NCBI GenBank assembly: GCA_965242725.1
Contig: CBDESZ010000020.1
Location: forward strand, 1-64,000
Source of the DNA: Alkalispirochaeta sp.
GTDB lineage: Bacteria; Spirochaetota; Spirochaetia; DSM-27196; Alkalispirochaetaceae
Direction: 5' to 3'
DNA: 64,000 nt
This document shows positions 8,689 through 16,278 of the stretch, one piece after another. Numbering within the stretch: the first letter of the stretch is position 1; each line of letters opens with the position of its first letter. A model generated the notes under the pieces. The model was not told the DNA's origin. It did no database searches and was given only the letters and a program-made list of their open reading frames with translations. The position numbers and the translations under genes were made by a program.

Positions 8689-9321
8689 ATGCCGCCTCTA
8701 CCGTCACCGGTATCGCCATCGGTTCTGGACATCTCTTCCCGTTTCTTCAGGAGTCCTCCGGCGGGAGGAGACGCTTTTCCCGCCTCCGTCGCGCTGTTTT
8801 CCCGGGCAACGACGCTCTTTGCGGGTGTACTCACGGAGTTGTCCGGCATTGGCGCCAAAAGCGTGGCCGTTGCGGTGGCACGTCAGTTCCTGCGGCGCTA
8901 TGAATCGCCGTTGCCATGGGTCCTCTCAAGAGCCGCCGTTCCCTATGCACCCGATCTGGAGGAGAGCGGTATCGATCTCAATCGCGTTATCTGGATTTCC
9001 CCGGATAATGCGGCGGATATGCGTTATACAATCGACACCCTTCTCGGAAGCGCTCTCTTTCCCGCCGTCTGCGTTGAACTCCGCAACTTTACCGCCCTGA
9101 CGCCGGGGATAATTGCCCGTTTCATGCACCGGGCCCGACATACCGGTACTGCGGTGTTTTTTGTTCTTCCCCGATTTGTCCCGACGCCATCCCCGGCGAT
9201 AGGGTACCACTTTGAAGTGGGCGGAGATACGCCGTTTCAGCGAGATATCATTGTTCATCGCTGCCGCAATCCCATATGGAACGATGAGTGTCATGTCAGT
9301 GCCCCCTCTTTTCTGCTGTAG
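8689..9321 (+). CDS. imuA: ImuA, RecA/SulA-like accessory protein
   Basis: GVLTELSG, PYAPDLEESGIDLNRVIWI; first gene upstream of imuB-dnaE2. Confidence 0.8.
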   Translation: MPPLPSPVSPSVLDISSRFFRSPPAGGDAFPASVALFSRATTLFAGVLTELSGIGAKSVAVAVARQFLRRYESPLPWVLSRAAVPYAPDLEESGIDLNRVIWISPDNAADMRYTIDTLLGSALFPAVCVELRNFTALTPGIIARFMHRARHTGTAVFFVLPRFVPTPSPAIGYHFEVGGDTPFQRDIIVHRCRNPIWNDECHVSAPSFLL

Positions 9322-10864
9322 CATCGCCGATCTTTCGCTGCAGCTGCTTCAGCGCCAAAAGGAGACGAGGAGGGAACACCCCCTGCTCGTTGTCAGTGCC
9401 GACCGCCCCGGTGGGAGAGTGACGGCGTGCAATCTCCCGGCCAGGGAACTCGGGGTGCAGGTGGGAATGCGGTACTCCGAGGCGTTGTCCCTTTCGGAGC
9501 GGATCGTTGCAGGTGTTGTGTCGGCACACGCTCGGAGATACGCCATGGCGGAAATTCGATCAATGCTGGAATCCTTTCTTCCGGCGGTTGAGGCGTGGGA
9601 GCTGTGGGAGAGCGTGTTGTGGGGGGACATGCGCGGCATGGCCCGCCTGGGTGGCGATGCCGCGCAACTGTCACGACGCATAGGGGAGGCGTTGCGGGAC
9701 GGCGACTGGATATGCGGCACCGCCGTCGGATGGACCCGCCCGGGCACCCTTTTTGCCGCACACGCCGTGTGGGACGTCCGCCGGAACGGACGCATTCGAG
9801 CCAGTCGTATCTTTTCTCGCCGGCACGATGAGATTCGATGGTATATGGAGCAGGATGCGGGCACGCTGCCGTTGGACGGCAGGGATCGGGAACGTCTCGG
9901 ACTGCTCGGGATTCGTACCGTATCGGATCTTCTCACGTTGGGTGAAGAGACGTTGTCGGGACGGTTTACCCCCTCCCTTCGCCGGTTTTTTCGTTTTTTG
10001 CGACGTACCGACGACTCCCTTCCCGTGGCAACGTCGCACACAGGTGTCGTTCCTGTCACCATCGCGCGGAGGTATGAGCCGCCGCTCCGCAGCGTGCAGG
10101 GACTCATGGAACGGATAAGAGAGCTTGTCCGGGAAGGGATGAAAGAGATAATCCCGAATGGGTGGTGGGTACGGGGAATTTCCATAACCCTTACCGATGA
10201 TCACGGTGGCGAGGTGCATGAGGAAATTGCCTGCGGACATCCTTCGCGGGACGAGATCTACCTCCTTCGCCTTATCGGGGCGCGTCTGGAGAACGCCCGA
10301 TGGTCGGCTCGGGAAATTCAGAACGTCACCCTTCTTCTGCAGCCGGAGACGCCGTCCTTTCGCCAGGGTACGCTGCAGGGACTCCTGTCTCGCTCCGAGG
10401 AAGCGTCGTTTTCCCTCTCTCCCGATTCCCTGTCGCGTATCCATGAGGTGTTTGCCCTGCTTGGCGCCCGTCTCGGAGAGCACAACGTCTTTCGCATTTT
10501 GCTGCAACCGGCGCGTATTCCGGAGCGCCGCTTCACCCTTGAGGGGGGCGCCGGTACGGGAAGCGAAGGGTGCGGTGTTACGTACCGTCCACAGGAAGGG
10601 GAGGATGAGTCCGCAGAAGCCGGGGAGGACGGCGGAGAAAAGGAAATTGTCGGTGTGCGTACCATACTCACCGGGGGGCCGCAGGTGTGGACCGGGGCGC
10701 TTCCCCCCCGTCTCCGGGGACCCTACGTCCTGACGTCGGAGTGGTGGAACGGGGATATGATGGACCGGCTGTACACCTATAACCGGGAGCGTTCCGGACG
10801 GACGGCATGGCTCTTTCGGCCCGTTGACGGAAAGGAATGGATGGTGCAGGGATGGCTGACCTGA
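9284..10864 (+). CDS. imuB: ImuB, catalytically inactive Y-family polymerase
   Basis: ACNLPARELGVQVGMRYSEA, LGLLGIRTVSDL, C-terminal GPYVLTSEWW and WMVQGW; lacks the Y-family catalytic acidic motifs. Confidence 0.88.
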   Translation: MSVMSVPPLFCCSIADLSLQLLQRQKETRREHPLLVVSADRPGGRVTACNLPARELGVQVGMRYSEALSLSERIVAGVVSAHARRYAMAEIRSMLESFLPAVEAWELWESVLWGDMRGMARLGGDAAQLSRRIGEALRDGDWICGTAVGWTRPGTLFAAHAVWDVRRNGRIRASRIFSRRHDEIRWYMEQDAGTLPLDGRDRERLGLLGIRTVSDLLTLGEETLSGRFTPSLRRFFRFLRRTDDSLPVATSHTGVVPVTIARRYEPPLRSVQGLMERIRELVREGMKEIIPNGWWVRGISITLTDDHGGEVHEEIACGHPSRDEIYLLRLIGARLENARWSAREIQNVTLLLQPETPSFRQGTLQGLLSRSEEASFSLSPDSLSRIHEVFALLGARLGEHNVFRILLQPARIPERRFTLEGGAGTGSEGCGVTYRPQEGEDESAEAGEDGGEKEIVGVRTILTGGPQVWTGALPPRLRGPYVLTSEWWNGDMMDRLYTYNRERSGRTAWLFRPVDGKEWMVQGWLT

Positions 10865-13800
10865 TACCCTGGGTACCGCTGTGGGTCTACAGCAATTACT
10901 CATTTCTCACCGGCGCCAGCCATCCGGAAGAACTGGTGAACGCCGCAATCGACGCAGGGCTGCCTGCAATGGCCATTACCGATCTCGACAGTTTTTCCGG
11001 GGTGGTACAGGCGTGGGATGCGGTGAAAACCTATCGGGAGGGATCGTCGTCGGAACGGCGGGCCGGGGCACCCTTTCAGTTCATCCCGGGCGCTCAGATT
11101 ACGGTTATTCCCGACACTGTCGGGTCCGTTCCCGCCGGATCTCCCCCGTCGATTCTTCTTTTTGCCCTCAATGAAGGGGGCTATGGCAACATGAGTGAAC
11201 TCATAACGCTGGGACGGCTGCGCGGACCGAAGGGGTACGGAGGAGTCACACCGGATGAGGTTGCCCGGTATGCCGGGGGAGTGGCGCTCATCTGGACCGA
11301 AGAGAGCGAGGGATTCGGTCCGGCGGCGAAATCACCTTGTCATCAGCAAGACGTGCCGGAGATGCGCGGTCTCATTGATGCATTTCCCGATCGCTGCTGG
11401 GTCGGTATCTCACGACACTTCCGTCCCGATGAACATATCCGGGAAGAGGTACTGTTGCGGACGGCCGAGCGCTTCCGTCTGCCCCTGGTTGCCGCACCGC
11501 GTATGTACTACCACACCGTCGAACGACGTCGCCTCCAGGATGCGATGACGTGCATCCGTCACGGTGTCACCATCGACGAGGCCGGTACAAGACTTCTCCC
11601 CAACGGCAGTTTCGGTATCGTATCCGCGGCGACGATGGCGCGACGGTACACAGACCATCCCGAGTGGTTAAGGGAAACGGCATCCCTCCCGGGACGGACA
11701 ACATTTGAGCTTTCCCAGTTGGAGTACCGTTATCCCGGTGTTCAGGGTGTGAACGGTGAGGATGAGGAACATCTTCTGTTCCGTCAGGTATGGGATGGAG
11801 CCCGTCGGCGATATCCCGACGGAGTGCCCTCTGAAGTAACGCGGCAGCTTGAGAAGGAGCTGTCTCTCATAACGGACCTGCGGTACGGCGGCTACTTTCT
11901 CACCATGGCGGAGATTGTCGATTTCTGTCGGGCACAGGGAATCCTGTGCCAGGGCCGCGGTTCTGCGGCAAATTCGGCAGTCTGTTTCTGCCTGGGCATC
12001 ACTGCCGTTGATCCGGTACGCATGGAACTGCTCTTTGAACGCTTCATTTCCCGGGAGCGGGCGGAACCGCCGGATATCGATCTGGATATCGAGCACCGAC
12101 GACGGGAAGAGGTCATTCAATATGTCTATCGCCGGTACGGGAGGGAATACGCCGCCATGATTTCCAATACCGTGCGGTTTCGCCGACGCTCCGCGGTACG
12201 GGAGCTGGGAAAGATCTTCGGATTTTCCGAAGTGAATCTCGACCAGGCGGCACGACAGGTGGGCCATCACGGCTATGAACTGAAAGAGGCGCTCGAGGCA
12301 AGCGGTTTTGACCTCGCTCAACGGCGGGTCGCCTGGTTTGCTGATCTGGCGGAGGAGATCGTCGACATGCCCCGTCATCTCTCCATCCATCCCGGAGGAT
12401 TTCTCCTTGGACGGGACCCGGTGGCCCGTATCGTACCGATGGAGAACGGTGCGATGGAGGATCGAACGGTCATTCAATGGGACAAGTATGCCGTGGAGAG
12501 TATGAACCTCTTCAAGCTGGATCTTCTCGGTCTTGGGGCACTGACACACCTTGACTACGCCTTCCGGCTGATGGCGGACCATCTTGGAGTAGACCTTTCC
12601 ATGGCGATGATTCCGCCGGACTGTTCCCGGACATTCGCCATGCTGTGGCGGGCCGACACGGTGGGGGTCTTTCAACTGGAGAGCAGGGCGCAAATGGCGA
12701 TGCTTCCCCGCATGCGTCCCCTGAAGTTCTACGATCTGGTGATTCAGATCAGCATCGTCCGTCCCGGTCCCATCACCGGCGGCATGGTACATCCCTATCT
12801 CCGTCGCCGTCACGGTGAGGAGCCGGTCTCGTATCCGCATTCCTCTCTCGAACCGATCCTGAAGCGGACGCTGGGTGTTCCTCTCTTCCAGGAGCAGGTG
12901 ATGAAGCTCGCCGTGGCGGCGGCACGGTATACCCCCGGTGAAGCTGATCAGTTGCGCAGAGATATGGCGGCGTGGCGCCATCATGGACGGATAGAGCAGC
13001 ACCACGATCGCATCACTCGACGAATGGTGGAAAACGGTATTGATGAGGAGTTTGCGGAACAGGTCTTTGAACAGATTCGGGGCTTTGGAGAGTACGGTTT
13101 TCCCGAAAGCCACGCCGCCAGCTTTGCCCTCATCGCGTATGCCACGGCATGGGTGCGCGCGCACTACCCGGTCATCTTCACATGCGCTCTTCTGAATGCA
13201 TGGCCCATGGGTTTTTACTCTCCATCAACTATCGTTCACGACGCCAGAGGAAAAGGGATTGAAGTGCGACGGGTCGATATTCTCCACAGCGAATGGGAGT
13301 GCACCCTGGAACGGCGGGAGTCCACAGGATACACCCGCGGCGATGTGAAGGTGCGACGGCACTCCGGCGACGATGTAGAGGCACGTCCACCGGGAGATAC
13401 GGGCACGAAAGACGCGCACCTCTGTGTGCGCCTGGGCTTTCGTTTCATTAAGGGACTCGGTATTTCCGACTGGGAACGAATACAGGCTGTTCGCGGCAGG
13501 CATGTACTTCACGGCGACGACAGTGACGGGATCGTGCGGTTTCTGCGTGCTCTCCGTCTTCATCGTGACCGGGCGATACGTCTCGCCGAAGCAGGCGCCT
13601 TTGACGGGATCGGCATAGACCGGCGACGGACGCTGTGGATGGCGATGGGAGCAGGCGATGCACAGAGGGACGAAGGAGACGACGACGGGATCGAGACTGA
13701 TTCGTTGATCCTTCACCCCTCATCGGTACCGGCCTTCGCTCACCTGGATCACTTTGAGCGCCTTGTGTGGGACTATCGAGCCGGTGGGCACAGCACCGAG

Positions 13801-14166
13801 TCCCATCCCATGGAACCCTATCGGCAGTGGCTCTCCCGCCGCTCCTATCCCGCCGCTGCCGATGTTCAGCGCGCTACCGACGGCGACTCCATTTCATATG
13901 TCGGAATGGTTATCTGCCGGCAGCGCCCGTCGACGGCCAGGGGCACCGTCTTTATGACACTTGAAGACGAGACCGGTTTTGTGAACCTCATCGTCTGGCG
14001 CCGCCGGTACGACCAGCTTCGATCAGTCCTGTTGACGACGACTATTCTTGGTGTTCGCGGTACACTACAGAAAAGCGACGGCGTGGTGCACCTCGTCGTC
14101 GATATGGTGTGGAAGCCGCGTCTTCCCTGTCCACACGGCATAGTGGAAAGCAGGGATTTTCGGTAA
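10852..14166 (+). CDS. dnaE2: Error-prone DNA polymerase DnaE2 (ImuC)
   Basis: SNYSFLTGASHPEEL, QGRGSAANS, PPDIDLDIEH, YGFPESHA, C-terminal SRDFR. Confidence 0.97.
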   Translation: MADLIPWVPLWVYSNYSFLTGASHPEELVNAAIDAGLPAMAITDLDSFSGVVQAWDAVKTYREGSSSERRAGAPFQFIPGAQITVIPDTVGSVPAGSPPSILLFALNEGGYGNMSELITLGRLRGPKGYGGVTPDEVARYAGGVALIWTEESEGFGPAAKSPCHQQDVPEMRGLIDAFPDRCWVGISRHFRPDEHIREEVLLRTAERFRLPLVAAPRMYYHTVERRRLQDAMTCIRHGVTIDEAGTRLLPNGSFGIVSAATMARRYTDHPEWLRETASLPGRTTFELSQLEYRYPGVQGVNGEDEEHLLFRQVWDGARRRYPDGVPSEVTRQLEKELSLITDLRYGGYFLTMAEIVDFCRAQGILCQGRGSAANSAVCFCLGITAVDPVRMELLFERFISRERAEPPDIDLDIEHRRREEVIQYVYRRYGREYAAMISNTVRFRRRSAVRELGKIFGFSEVNLDQAARQVGHHGYELKEALEASGFDLAQRRVAWFADLAEEIVDMPRHLSIHPGGFLLGRDPVARIVPMENGAMEDRTVIQWDKYAVESMNLFKLDLLGLGALTHLDYAFRLMADHLGVDLSMAMIPPDCSRTFAMLWRADTVGVFQLESRAQMAMLPRMRPLKFYDLVIQISIVRPGPITGGMVHPYLRRRHGEEPVSYPHSSLEPILKRTLGVPLFQEQVMKLAVAAARYTPGEADQLRRDMAAWRHHGRIEQHHDRITRRMVENGIDEEFAEQVFEQIRGFGEYGFPESHAASFALIAYATAWVRAHYPVIFTCALLNAWPMGFYSPSTIVHDARGKGIEVRRVDILHSEWECTLERRESTGYTRGDVKVRRHSGDDVEARPPGDTGTKDAHLCVRLGFRFIKGLGISDWERIQAVRGRHVLHGDDSDGIVRFLRALRLHRDRAIRLAEAGAFDGIGIDRRRTLWMAMGAGDAQRDEGDDDGIETDSLILHPSSVPAFAHLDHFERLVWDYRAGGHSTESHPMEPYRQWLSRRSYPAAADVQRATDGDSISYVGMVICRQRPSTARGTVFMTLEDETGFVNLIVWRRRYDQLRSVLLTTTILGVRGTLQKSDGVVHLVVDMVWKPRLPCPHGIVESRDFR

Positions 14167-14168
14167 TA

Positions 14169-15443
14169 TTCACAAGCGTGTTGAAAAAGCGATAGTAGTC
14201 ATTGGTGTGTAGGGAGTTATGACAGGAACCCAACTTTGCGGGTTCCCGATCCGTCCCCCGGAGGTATCCCTCATGCCCATTCCGACCCATTGTTCCAATC
14301 CTGCCTGTCGCCATTTCCACCATCCGCCGCCCCGTTGGCGCGTCCGCTTCGGCTCCTACGATACAGTGGCCCACGGAACCGTCCCGCGCTATCGCTGTAT
14401 CGCCTGCGGCAAGACCTTCAGTGATCAGACCGAATCCATGCACTACTACGCCAAACGACGCCTCCCCCTCAAGGCGATCTCCACCACCCTCACCGGCGGC
14501 GCCTCCATGCGCGAAGCGGCGACTCGCTATCACGTCTCTCCGGCAGCGATACGAAACGCCGTTCTGCGCCTCGGTCGTCAGGCAATGATCGGGCACATCC
14601 ATCTGCTGGATACCATGCCACCCCTCCGGAATGTCGTCTTCGACGGCCTGCGGTCATTCGTGACCTCCCAGGACTACCCCTGCGATATCACCACGGTGGT
14701 CAGTCGAACCGGTGAGATGATCCTGACCATGACCCATACCATCACCCGTCGGGGCGGTACCATGACATCCCGACAACGACGACGACGGCGACGAAAGTAC
14801 GCCGTATGGTCCCCGACGAAGGGGGCGGTGGGGAGCGCTATCTCTCTGTTGTGTCGTGAAATACTCGACTATGTCCGATATACCTGCACGGCACCGATTG
14901 TTATCGACACCGACGAACACCCGGTGTATCGATCGGTTCTCCGGTCGAACGACTGTTACCGGCATCTCCGGACGGCGGGGCAGCTGACGCATATCCGGAC
15001 CGCGGGGAGTGCCCCGCGGACGATGGAGAACCGGTTGTTTCCGGTAAACTATGTTGACCGGCTGTTGCGGCACCGGGAGAAGGAACATACCCGGGAGACG
15101 ATCGCCTTCGGGCGTCATGGAACGATCCAGATGCATCGGGCGTGGGTATTCGGGTGGAACCATAACTGCGTGCGGCCGTGGCGGGAGAAGCGGGCAGAGA
15201 TGGGAAGTCACGCCTCTGCGGCGGGGATCTCGTCGGAATTGATCCGCGGGTTGAATGAACGGTTCTATACCCGACGATACCGGGTGACCCGGCAGGCGAT
15301 ACCGGAATCGATCCGGGAGGTCTTTCTTGCACAGGTCGCGACGCCGCCGGTGCGGTGGAAGAAGGGGCAGAAAGGTACGACCGTCAGGGTTCCCGGGTAT
15401 GCGGCCCGGGATCTCCTGGCGGCCGTATCAACAGGCTTGTGAA
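14169..15443 (+). mobile_element. Insertion-sequence-like element (1275 bp) with 16-bp terminal inverted repeats and probable TA target duplication
   Basis: Left TTCACAAGCGTGTTGA (14169-14184) and right TCAACAGGCTTGTGAA (15428-15443) match at 15/16; TA at 14167-14168 and 15444-15445; single transposase ORF inside. Confidence 0.8.
14273..15442 (+). CDS. IS1-like transposase (zinc ribbon + HTH + atypical RNase H/DDE domain)
   Basis: CSNPAC and RYRCIACGKTF, HTH SMREAATRYHVSPAAI, VVFDGL, IDTDEHPVY, VNYVDRLLRH and RETIAFGR; GGAGG SD before ATG 14273 (alternative start 14219); stop lies in the right IR. Confidence 0.78.
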   Translation: MPIPTHCSNPACRHFHHPPPRWRVRFGSYDTVAHGTVPRYRCIACGKTFSDQTESMHYYAKRRLPLKAISTTLTGGASMREAATRYHVSPAAIRNAVLRLGRQAMIGHIHLLDTMPPLRNVVFDGLRSFVTSQDYPCDITTVVSRTGEMILTMTHTITRRGGTMTSRQRRRRRRKYAVWSPTKGAVGSAISLLCREILDYVRYTCTAPIVIDTDEHPVYRSVLRSNDCYRHLRTAGQLTHIRTAGSAPRTMENRLFPVNYVDRLLRHREKEHTRETIAFGRHGTIQMHRAWVFGWNHNCVRPWREKRAEMGSHASAAGISSELIRGLNERFYTRRYRVTRQAIPESIREVFLAQVATPPVRWKKGQKGTTVRVPGYAARDLLAAVSTGL

Positions 15444-15447
15444 TACT

Positions 15448-16278
15448 TCACAGATGTTGGCAGTGGGGGCAGATATGGGTACTCCGTTGTCCGACAACGA
15501 TACGTACAATCGGAGTAGTACACCGAGGACAGGAAGCTCCGGTACGCCCATAGACGGAAAGGTGTATCTGGTTTGTCGGCGGAAAAGCCCCGGAATGGGC
15601 GACAAAGTTCCCCTTTCCATTGCCGAGGCGTGTTCCGTAATTGCGGATGCCCTGAAAAAGGACGTATCGTATTGCTTCAAAGAGGTCGTCCGATTCATTT
15701 CTGGAGAGGGAAGTCGCCTCCCTCCCGGGATGAATGGCCGCGCGCCACAGCGCTTCGTCGGTGTAAATGTTGCCCATGCCTGCAATGACGCTCTGGTCGA
15801 GGAGAAGAGCTTTAATGCGCCTTCTTCGCACGGAAAGCGTCTCCCACAGAAAAAGAGGCGAAAACCCATCCGAAACGGGATCGACTCCCAACCGATCGAG
15901 GAGTGGATCGAGTGATTCGTGAAAGAGAAAGCGACCAAACTTGCGGGGATCGTAAAATCGGATCTCTCGAGAGTCATCAAGGGTCAACAGGACGCGCTCA
16001 TAGCCCGAGAGCGGCTCATCATCGGTGGCGACGTAAAGCCGTCCACTCATGCGTAAATGAATGGAGAGAGCCTGCACGGCTCCCAGACTGAGAAAAATGT
16101 ACTTTCCATGACGGCTGACAGCGGTGATACCCTTTCCAACCACCGCCGATCTGAAACGGTCAGGGTCACCGCCAACGGTATTTGCCCACCGTACCTCCAC
16201 GGCGGTGATGCGGCGTCCGACGATACCGTCCCCTTGAAGGACGGTAACCACCGTTTGGGCTTCGGGTAGTTCCGGCAT
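15448..16278 (-). CDS. mutM: Formamidopyrimidine-DNA glycosylase
   Basis: MPELPE, HLRMSG, DPRKFG, GMGNIYTDEAL, zinc finger CPRC and CPHCQ. Confidence 0.97.
   Translation of the reverse strand: MPELPEAQTVVTVLQGDGIVGRRITAVEVRWANTVGGDPDRFRSAVVGKGITAVSRHGKYIFLSLGAVQALSIHLRMSGRLYVATDDEPLSGYERVLLTLDDSREIRFYDPRKFGRFLFHESLDPLLDRLGVDPVSDGFSPLFLWETLSVRRRRIKALLLDQSVIAGMGNIYTDEALWRAAIHPGREATSLSRNESDDLFEAIRYVLFQGIRNYGTRLGNGKGNFVAHSGAFPPTNQIHLSVYGRTGASCPRCTTPIVRIVVGQRSTHICPHCQHL

What the first reader, a model, noticed from the sequence alone, without database searches (positions are those of the whole stretch)
14273..15442. Symmetric C-to-G skew flip inside the transposase gene
Seen (hand counts per 60-nt line): the 5' half is C-rich (14281: 27C/11G; 14461: 30C/14G; 14581: 20C/14G). 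The 3' half is G-rich (15001: 15C/22G; 15181: 13C/26G; 15361: 16C/24G). Synonymous codons appear to shift from CGC/CCC/ACC to CGG/CCG/ACG/GGG at about 14800-14900. Each strand is therefore C-rich at its 5' end. Inference: an element-centred strand asymmetry, for example copying or ssDNA exposure inward from both ends during mobility, or selection for end-to-end pairing. Simple cut-and-paste would not predict this.
Basis: partly seen in the sequence, partly recalled or inferred. Interest (0 to 1): 0.7.

Follow-up and report, generated by a model that had tools for sequence, protein, structure and literature searches.

The report
Insertion sequence with mirrored C-to-G gradient
A small jumping gene that lands right behind host genes' stop codons has its spare codon letters arranged so that both DNA strands start C-rich and G-poor, most likely to make transcription running in from either neighbour stop inside it.

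Summary
In this 1.28-kb insertion sequence (14165-15447), fourfold sites go from 62C/30G to 23C/65G (z 5.6; 0 of 20000 permutations), turning at 14810 against a midpoint of 14806. All 7 of 1270 similar-sized genes with a shift this large belong to this family. 69 of 78 homologues share the sign; pooled, it is a gradient rather than a flip. The transposase is an unclassified spirochaete DDE-fold enzyme. 35 of 49 copies sit at host stop codons, mostly without target duplication; this one lies between converging dnaE2 and mutM. End-to-end pairing is not supported and cytosine deamination has the wrong sign. Best reading (0.45): selection for C>G Rho-loading tracts on both strands, stopping read-through from either flank; inferred, untested. 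Main rival (0.3): strand-asymmetric guanine mutation from both ends. Against a Rho-only rule: Rho-less Halobacterium elements show a weaker same-sign trend. Actinobacterial IS1182/IS4 show the mirror image (9 of 9). No paper found in ten searches; the scan earlier noted a same-sign pattern in fungal genes.

The parts
14165..15447 (+). Insertion sequence, about 1283 bp; ends uncertain by 2-3 nt because no empty site was found. Four more copies at 98.8-99.5% identity in the genome.
   Evidence: no empty-site joint
14165..14184 (+). Left terminal inverted repeat; abuts or overlaps the dnaE2 stop codon TAA (14164-14166)
   Evidence: (I5, 18 nt, 94%)
15428..15447 (-). Right terminal inverted repeat; directly follows the mutM stop codon (15448-15450 on the minus strand)
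14273..15442 (+). Transposase, 389 aa: N-terminal Cys zinc-binding motif, HTH, RNase H-like core with invariant D124, D214, N259 (D262 nearly invariant)
14260..14275 (+). Shine-Dalgarno-like GGAGG and ATG; predicted base-paired in a read-through RNA that starts at the left end (no control run)
14199..14822 (+). Uninterrupted C>=G 'bubble' on the sense strand (547 consecutive 78-nt windows)
14920..15447 (-). Uninterrupted C>=G 'bubble' on the antisense strand (451 consecutive 78-nt windows), starting at the right end
14777..14810 (.). Turning point of cumulative GC skew; element midpoint 14806
10837..14166 (+). Host dnaE2-type polymerase gene reading into the left end; intact C-terminus
15448..16278 (-). 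Host mutM/fpg gene reading into the right end; intact C-terminus

Best explanation
This is a DDE-type insertion sequence of an unclassified spirochaete family that ends up at gene 3' ends, often right at the stop codon. Host RNA polymerase therefore runs into it from either side. Its synonymous sites have been selected so that whichever strand is read first gives C-rich, G-poor, untranslated RNA, which is what Rho loads on, so read-through is terminated inside the element. This keeps transposase from being driven by host promoters, limits antisense RNA, and gives the interrupted host gene a terminator. The two opposite pressures weaken with distance from each end and cancel at the middle, giving a gradient centred on the midpoint. 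Shown: the gradient, its centring, its spread in the family, the stop-codon association, the two bubbles and a rho gene. Inferred: read-through itself, Rho action and selection.
For: Gradient in all 8 fourfold codon boxes (dlog G/C +0.54 to +1.46) and at twofold sites, where only transitions are silent (C/T -0.40 +- 0.06, G/A +0.34 +- 0.10; host +0.07 and +0.05; by amino acid C/T falls in 6 of 7 and G/A rises in 2 of 3). That fits one ranking C>U>A>G at the 5' part of each strand whatever the mutation path. C>=G bubbles of 547 and 451 windows begin at each strand's 5' part; 0 of 3000 random genome windows match. In PMC6144790 (passages) all tested templates with bubbles over 78 bp gave Rho termination with E. 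coli Rho. 43 of 98 ends (35 of 49 copies) have the stop of an ORF of 150 codons or more within -15..+6 nt, against 5.1% of 3000 non-genic positions of the own genome. rho is in the host and in 90 of 99 genomes of the order. A crude perfect-stem scan finds intrinsic terminators behind only 1-7% of host genes and inside none of 9 element types. The 5' halves of both strands fold less stably than the 3' halves (-30.1 vs -32.9 and -31.1 vs -34.6 kcal/mol per 100 nt). No gradient in 5 cyanobacterial transposases (cyanobacteria recalled as Rho-less, Synechococcus negative in the control).
Against: No expression or termination data. Rho-less Halobacterium elements show the same sign: 8 of 11 transposase genes (several are near-copies) have z 2.4-3.5, against a host mean of 0.84 and 5 of 33 host genes at 2.4 or more. 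Actinobacterial IS1182/IS4 show the opposite sign (9 of 9) although these hosts are recalled to have Rho. No YC or CC junction enrichment beyond composition in the 5' third, and the 5' halves are no less structured than host genes or than synonymous shuffles. Host convergent genes show no extra 3' G-richness over tandem genes (p 0.46). By inspection, gradient strength does not follow stop targeting across 9 subfamilies: L121 has 5 of 8 ends at stops and shift 0.12; L151 has 2 of 16 and 0.62; own C33 follows an intrinsic terminator and has 0.95. The host Rho has about 100 extra N-terminal residues, and such insertions can remove the C>G preference (PMC13650167 section 20). Singleton changes between copies are skewed toward G loss in the 5' parts (17 of 293 G sites vs 12 of 509 C sites for G>C/G>T vs C>G/C>A, p 0.019), which mutation also explains. 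9 of 78 homologues have zero or negative trend.
Confidence: 0.45

Rival explanations
1. Mutational footprint. The 5' part of each strand is exposed as single-stranded DNA from both ends, by strand displacement during mobility or repair between copies, or as the non-template strand in read-through R-loops. Guanine lesions give G>C and G>T there, and the gradient is neutral.
For: Singleton transversions from G exceed those from C in the 5' parts (p 0.019) while transitions are even (p 0.84). The equilibrium skew implied by differences between copies (-0.26/+0.36) matches the present one (-0.26/+0.31). Copies are unusually diverse (1 identical pair of 164) and mosaic (2 of 15 up to 398 of 741 informative site pairs fail the four-gamete test). 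Halobacterium elements show the gradient at fourfold sites (+0.78 +- 0.15) but not at twofold sites. Actinobacterial elements show a clean deamination-type signature (5' G>C, T>A, twofold T>C and G>A), so an end-inward mutational geometry exists in some hosts.
Against: Twofold sites in this family shift in the selection direction, which transversion damage cannot cause. Polymorphism density is flat along the element (0.10-0.14 per sixth) and so is divergence in 19 close pairs (0.33-0.36). The differences between copies are already filtered by selection (singleton syn 177 vs nonsyn 75), so they are not raw mutations. The counts are small and polarised by majority.
Confidence: 0.3
2. Selection on nascent RNA but not through Rho: C-rich, G-poor RNA avoids R-loops or long pauses when untranslated read-through enters from either side.
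For: The same base ranking and geometry, and it would also work in Rho-less archaea. That purine-rich RNA favours R-loops is recalled; PMC12360218 (passages) links Rho, antisense transcription and R-loops.
Against: It does not explain the mirror image in Actinobacteria or the absence in cyanobacteria. It cannot be separated from Rho by sequence alone.
Confidence: 0.12
3. The element behaves like a tiny replichore pair: each strand's 3' part takes on the host's leading-strand bias (for example by resection and repair from the ends), so the sign follows the host's replication skew.
For: The sign reverses in Streptomyces, whose chromosomal skew is recalled as inverted; PMC2031905 (passages) reports negative leading-strand G skew in two unnamed Actinobacteria.
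Against: In this host the strand contrast at fourfold sites is about 0.03-0.1 in most of 10 contigs shown (C4, 0.35, is an exception), and A/T mostly moves the opposite way, whereas the element shifts 0.8 with A/T in the same direction. Rhodococcus also reverses (z -4.2). I did not measure any actinobacterial chromosomal skew.
Confidence: 0.07
4. Selection for the C-rich half to pair with the G-rich half as a rod-like RNA or ssDNA.
For: The whole-element folding energy is lower than in shuffles (-544.9 vs -514 +- 12; 1 of 35 as low) and one 30-nt, 70% inverted repeat joins the halves.
Against: The real sequence has fewer long-range pairs than gradient-preserving shuffles (85 vs 137 +- 26; 34 of 35 shuffles have as many or more) and fewer cross-midpoint pairs (75 vs 159; 35 of 35).
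Confidence: 0.03

Closest known systems
IS1 / IS1595 / IS6-type DDE insertion sequences
   Same: Single ORF with zinc motif, HTH and RNase H core; weak NCBIfam IS1, ISL3 and IS1/IS1595-Zn hits on the N-terminal part; Atlas neighbours with DDE_Tnp_IS1 or IS240 at 0.90-0.92; short terminal inverted repeats.
   Different: No model reaches its cut-off (best 31.8 of 180 bits); PF12762 finds nothing in 99 genomes of the order; the third catalytic position aligns to an invariant Asn; no consistent target duplication; strong association with stop codons.
Rho-dependent polarity and terminators in IS1, IS2, IS3
   Same: Insertion sequences are reported to carry terminator or rut-like sequences near their ends (PMC12095673 passage and reference titles).
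   Different: Those are local sites; here about 620 and 530 nt of coding sequence on opposite strands are skewed through synonymous codon choice, symmetric about the midpoint.
C>G bubbles / rut sites
   Same: Both strands meet the published 78-nt-window definition over hundreds of windows (PMC6144790 passages).
   Different: Defined for E. coli Rho; bubbles are common and not sufficient; no YC enrichment beyond composition here; the host Rho has an N-terminal extension.
Opposite GC skews at 5' and 3' ends of fungal genes (McLean and Tirosh 2011, PMC3315797)
   Same: Same sign on the coding strand, also at fourfold sites, cause unresolved (abstract).
   Different: Genome-wide in fungi; here absent from host genes and confined to one element family, much larger, and centred on the element.
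Actinobacterial IS1182 and IS4, enterobacterial IS4 (measured here)
   Same: Element-long G/C gradients in unrelated DDE families. IS1182 is over-represented between convergent genes (PMC9208149 passage).
   Different: Actinobacterial elements have the opposite sign and a deamination-type spectrum; enterobacterial IS4 has the same sign, mostly in the 3' half, with twofold sites not following.

Membership tests
DDE-type insertion sequence (general) | RNase H-like catalytic fold with conserved acidic residues | tested here: met
   Model pLDDT 85.9; the top 34 structural matches are DDE transposases or integrases, best ISCth4 Z 9.9, rmsd 5.7 over 222 residues, tied with integrases; D124 and D214 invariant in 16 of 16.
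DDE-type insertion sequence (general) | Terminal inverted repeats and dispersed copies with different flanks | tested here: met
   5 copies in the genome with unrelated flanks; inverted repeats also in most homologues.
DDE-type insertion sequence (general) | Target-site duplication | tested here: inconclusive
   38 of 49 copies have no direct repeat of 4 nt or more at the junction, 8 have 4 nt, 3 have 7-12 nt; 2-3 nt repeats and the exact ends cannot be settled without an empty site.
IS1 | NF033558 above cut-off | tested here: not met
   24.1 bits vs cut-off 100; at most 31.3 in 13 homologues.
IS1595 | PF12762 DDE domain match | tested here: not met
   0 Pfam families for the protein; 0 of 99 genomes of the order at E<=1e-10.
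IS1595 | Zn finger-HTH-DDE/DDN order with Asn allowed at the third position (recalled for some subgroups) | tested here: inconclusive
   The order and invariant N259 with R266 at +7 are seen; the subgroup motif is recalled, not from a call.
IS256 / ISL3 | Family HMM above cut-off | tested here: not met
   ISL3 31.8 vs 180 on residues 6-106 only; PF00872 matches in the genome lie elsewhere, on C5.
Rho-dependent terminator | C>G bubble longer than 78 nt on the transcribed strand | tested here: met
   547 and 451 windows; 0 of 3000 random windows.
Rho-dependent terminator | YC-rich and unstructured beyond what composition gives | tested here: not met
   Junction Y|C obs/exp 0.99 in the 5' third; local folding no weaker than shuffles or host genes. 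Antisense-side G|R is 1.075 vs host 1.047.
Rho-dependent terminator | Termination that depends on Rho | not testable with these tools
   No RNA holder listed.

The most novel reading that the evidence does not exclude
Insertion sequences that live at gene 3' ends record read-through from both flanks in their synonymous sites. Where Rho prefers C>G RNA they evolve a gene-long, two-way Rho insulator written in codon choice (this spirochaete family, partly enterobacterial IS4). Where Rho has lost that preference the bare deamination footprint shows with the opposite sign (actinobacterial IS1182/IS4), and where Rho is absent little shows (cyanobacteria). The gradient's sign would then read out a host's termination code from sequence alone.
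Probability: 0.25. Interest if true: 0.82.

Novelty: new variant of a known kind. Interest (0 to 1): 0.63.

Why it matters
How insertion sequences shield themselves and their hosts from read-through is known from a few local signals. A gene-long, mirror-symmetric signal in synonymous codons would be a second code laid over a transposase gene, testable by recoding. The family itself (no Pfam model; 333 homologues; found in 60 of 99 genomes of the order) is an unclassified element that sits at stop codons without breaking genes. The reversed sign in Actinobacteria shows the pattern is wider than this window and depends on the host. If the mutational rival is right, it marks an unrecognised single-stranded step in mobility or repair.

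Tried and rejected
Chance, amino-acid composition and a 5' ramp: rejected. A general property of all elements: 13 distinct IS256, IS110 and IS4/5-type transposases from the same order have median z 0.3 and none above 3 (32 loci tried, 16 gave a complete ORF, 3 were duplicates); the own IS21, IS3 and other multicopy transposases lie between -1.8 and +0.9. End-to-end pairing: rejected. Deamination of either half as the sole cause: wrong sign. End-linked hypermutation: flat profiles. Overlapping antisense gene: only 4 of 78 have a long antisense stop-free frame. Gradient versus GC content: no correlation (rho -0.03). Sigma-70-like site at 14169-14196: at chance level. Empty site or circle junction: none in four assemblies of one sample; the single internal joint has a 29-nt side and probably comes from a relative. 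No RNA holder listed. No homologue in the plasmid collection. A Rho-less control inside the order was not possible. The 11 copies in G496 were poorly parsed by my script (5 of 11 gave an ORF, z 1.2-1.8, 1 end at a stop) and are not in the 49; the 2 copies L135/L136 were dropped from end counts because their ends were mis-anchored. Literature: ten searches found no paper on an element-centred G/C gradient in insertion sequences or on this family; most subscription papers and ISfinder are not in the library. PMC2266710 had no hit for terminator, Rho or skew; PMC4670077 passages were uninformative.

Full report
Observation. The six hand counts are exact. At fourfold-degenerate sites the transposase gene has 62 C and 30 G in its first half and 23 C and 65 G in its second. 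The trend z is 5.55, Fisher p 2.7e-8, and 0 of 20000 within-box permutations reach it; A versus T shows no trend in this copy. The turning point (14810) is 4 nt from the element midpoint (14806). Among 2774 ORFs that I called in the genome, z averages 0.02 with sd 1.22. Of 1270 ORFs of 300-500 codons, 7 shift by 0.8 or more: the five copies of this element and two homologues at 52% and 31% identity. Other multicopy transposases of the genome show nothing.

The element. It spans about 14165-15447, with roughly 20-nt inverted repeats and one 389-aa ORF. Pfam has no match and NCBIfam gives only sub-threshold N-terminal hits. The predicted structure is an RNase H-type DDE transposase/integrase fold, with invariant D124, D214 and N259. 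Named homologues are mostly Spirochaetota, and 60 of 99 genomes of the order carry one. I file it as an unclassified DDE element resembling IS1, IS1595 and IS6, not as a member of any.

Where it sits. This copy lies between the stop codons of converging dnaE2 and mutM, both intact; in one of the relatives examined these two genes meet tail to tail with no element (L287). Across 49 copies of 9 subfamilies in 5 genomes, 43 of 98 ends and 35 of 49 copies have the stop of an ORF of at least 150 codons within -15..+6 nt; 8 copies have it at both ends. The null is 5.1% of non-genic positions, measured in the own genome only. Some other copies follow T-runs, one of them a canonical terminator. 38 of 49 show no direct repeat of 4 nt or more. 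Targeting and survival bias cannot be told apart.

The family. From 121 loci, 99 were full length and 78 remained below 85% identity. 69 of 78 have a positive trend, 45 exceed z 2 and 35 exceed z 3; pooled skew climbs from -0.41 in the first tenth to +0.31 in the ninth and +0.20 in the last. In the 17 elements with z of 4 or more and clear ends, the turning point is at a median 0.47 of element length. Strong gradients are scattered over the tree (16 changes for 28 rows) and are most common in hosts of the own genus, in separate lineages, which suggests a host effect. Relatives share ancestry, so these are not independent trials.

What the spectrum says. All eight fourfold boxes shift. From first to last third, log G/C rises 0.98 and log A/T rises 0.33; at twofold sites log C/T falls 0.40 and log G/A rises 0.34, while host genes stay within 0.07. 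These four numbers fit one ranking, C over U over A over G, at the 5' part of each strand. Cytosine deamination of either half gives the wrong sign for C or for A/T. Transversion damage alone would leave twofold sites flat. Folding shows no pairing between the halves beyond shuffles.

Best explanation. Both strands begin with a very long C>=G tract (547 and 451 windows; 0 of 3000 random windows), the feature tied to Rho termination in PMC6144790 (passages). The host has rho and few intrinsic terminators by a crude scan. RNA entering from the right is antisense and so presumably untranslated. RNA entering from the left has its ribosome-binding site and start codon predicted paired (uncontrolled). 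I infer selection for a two-way Rho-dependent insulator, at 0.45. Every functional step is inferred.

Results against it. There is no YC enrichment or extra lack of structure and no matching signal in host convergent genes. Gradient strength does not follow stop targeting across subfamilies. The host Rho has about 100 extra N-terminal residues. Singleton differences between copies lose G by transversion in the 5' parts more often than C (p 0.019). Halobacterium, an archaeon without Rho (recalled; two archaea are negative in the control), shows the same sign in 8 of 11 transposase genes over a host mean of 0.84.

Beyond this family. All 7 E. coli K-12 elements tested have positive z (0.1-3.0; IS4 highest), but so do 8 of 9 host genes nearby, up to 2.1. 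Two more enterobacterial IS4-family genes give 4.2 and 3.2. Six of 6 actinobacterial IS1182 (z -3.6 to -8.2) and 3 of 3 Streptomyces IS4 (-1.1 to -5.1) give the mirror image, with a deamination-type spectrum on the 5' parts, while 14 host genes of one Streptomyces plasmid are flat. In the same IS1182 group, 3 cyanobacterial genes, 3 alphaproteobacterial genes and one each from Bacteroidota and Chloroflexota lie between -0.6 and +1.7, and a broken Deinococcus copy gives -2.2. These were hand-picked from hit lists (14 of 60 listed; 7 of 50), so they are a probe, not a survey. PMC13650167 (section 20) reports that full-length M. tuberculosis Rho sites lack a C>G bias, which would let a mutational footprint show in Actinobacteria; this link is post hoc.

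Literature. Seen: passages of PMC12360218, PMC6144790, PMC9208149, PMC3971601, PMC2031905, PMC4670077 and PMC12095673; passages and section 20 of PMC13650167; the abstract of PMC3315797; a null term search of PMC2266710. No supplements were read; the tables of PMC9208149 and PMC3971601 might cover this family under another name. Ten searches found no report of this gradient. The scan's own notes held one related item, on fungal genes, and nothing on this sequence or genome.

Verdict. A real, strong and family-wide feature in an unclassified stop-codon-associated insertion sequence. The mechanism is most likely selection on read-through RNA, with a mutational rival still alive. New variant of a known kind; interest 0.63.

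Noticed in passing
L298:25175-26908 (-), L299-L303, L292-L294: Actinobacterial IS1182 and IS4 transposase genes carry the mirror-image gradient (G-rich start, C-rich end; z down to -8.2) with a deamination-type spectrum; host genes flat.
   Followed up: partly
G000 C20, C27, C17, C3, C30; L121-L134, L139-L162: Copies within one genome are nearly all different (1 identical pair of 164; mean 0.8-3.4%), mostly at silent sites, and mosaic by the four-gamete test. IS256 and IS4/5 copies in the same genomes give near-identical scores. Suggests old copies under purifying selection with frequent gene conversion.
   Followed up: partly
G000, nine family copies: 8 of 9 copies have a positive flanking GC skew in element orientation (one only +0.001), i.e. 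transposase apparently on the leading strand; orientation bias is described for other families in PMC3971601.
   Followed up: no
window 14165-14193 and 15436-15447; L125-L134 ends: Differences between copies cluster in the terminal 40 nt in some subfamilies (12 of 32 in the own group, partly flank bases; 24 of 152 in L126) but not in others (4 of 118 in L139).
   Followed up: no
window 8689-14166: An imuA-imuB-dnaE2-like mutagenesis cassette (names recalled; dnaE2 domains) ends exactly at the element's left end, and the oxidised-guanine repair gene mutM ends at its right end. Probably coincidence, since other copies have other neighbours.
   Followed up: partly
L215, L216, L218: IS110-type transposase genes from this order are G-rich at fourfold sites along their whole length (+0.5 to +0.6), so their antisense strand is C-rich throughout.
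   Followed up: no
G000:C8:35194-36438 (L120): The host Rho has about 100 extra, charged, low-complexity residues before the conserved core; open frames in the order run up to 689 aa.
   Followed up: no
G000:C4: Contig C4 has a much larger strand contrast at fourfold sites (+0.09 vs -0.26) than the other nine contigs shown, with several unusually skewed genes near 355-396 kb; possibly foreign DNA or a binning error.
   Followed up: no
L142, L145, L149: Three copies in G380 share the same 14-nt flank and an altered terminus at one end, suggesting tandem or composite rearrangement.
   Followed up: no
L187 (G380), L240 (G406), L225 (G408): Single elements of other families with sizeable gradients: IS256 z +2.9, an IS1634-like gene (name recalled) +2.7, an IS4/5-type gene -3.3.
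   Followed up: no
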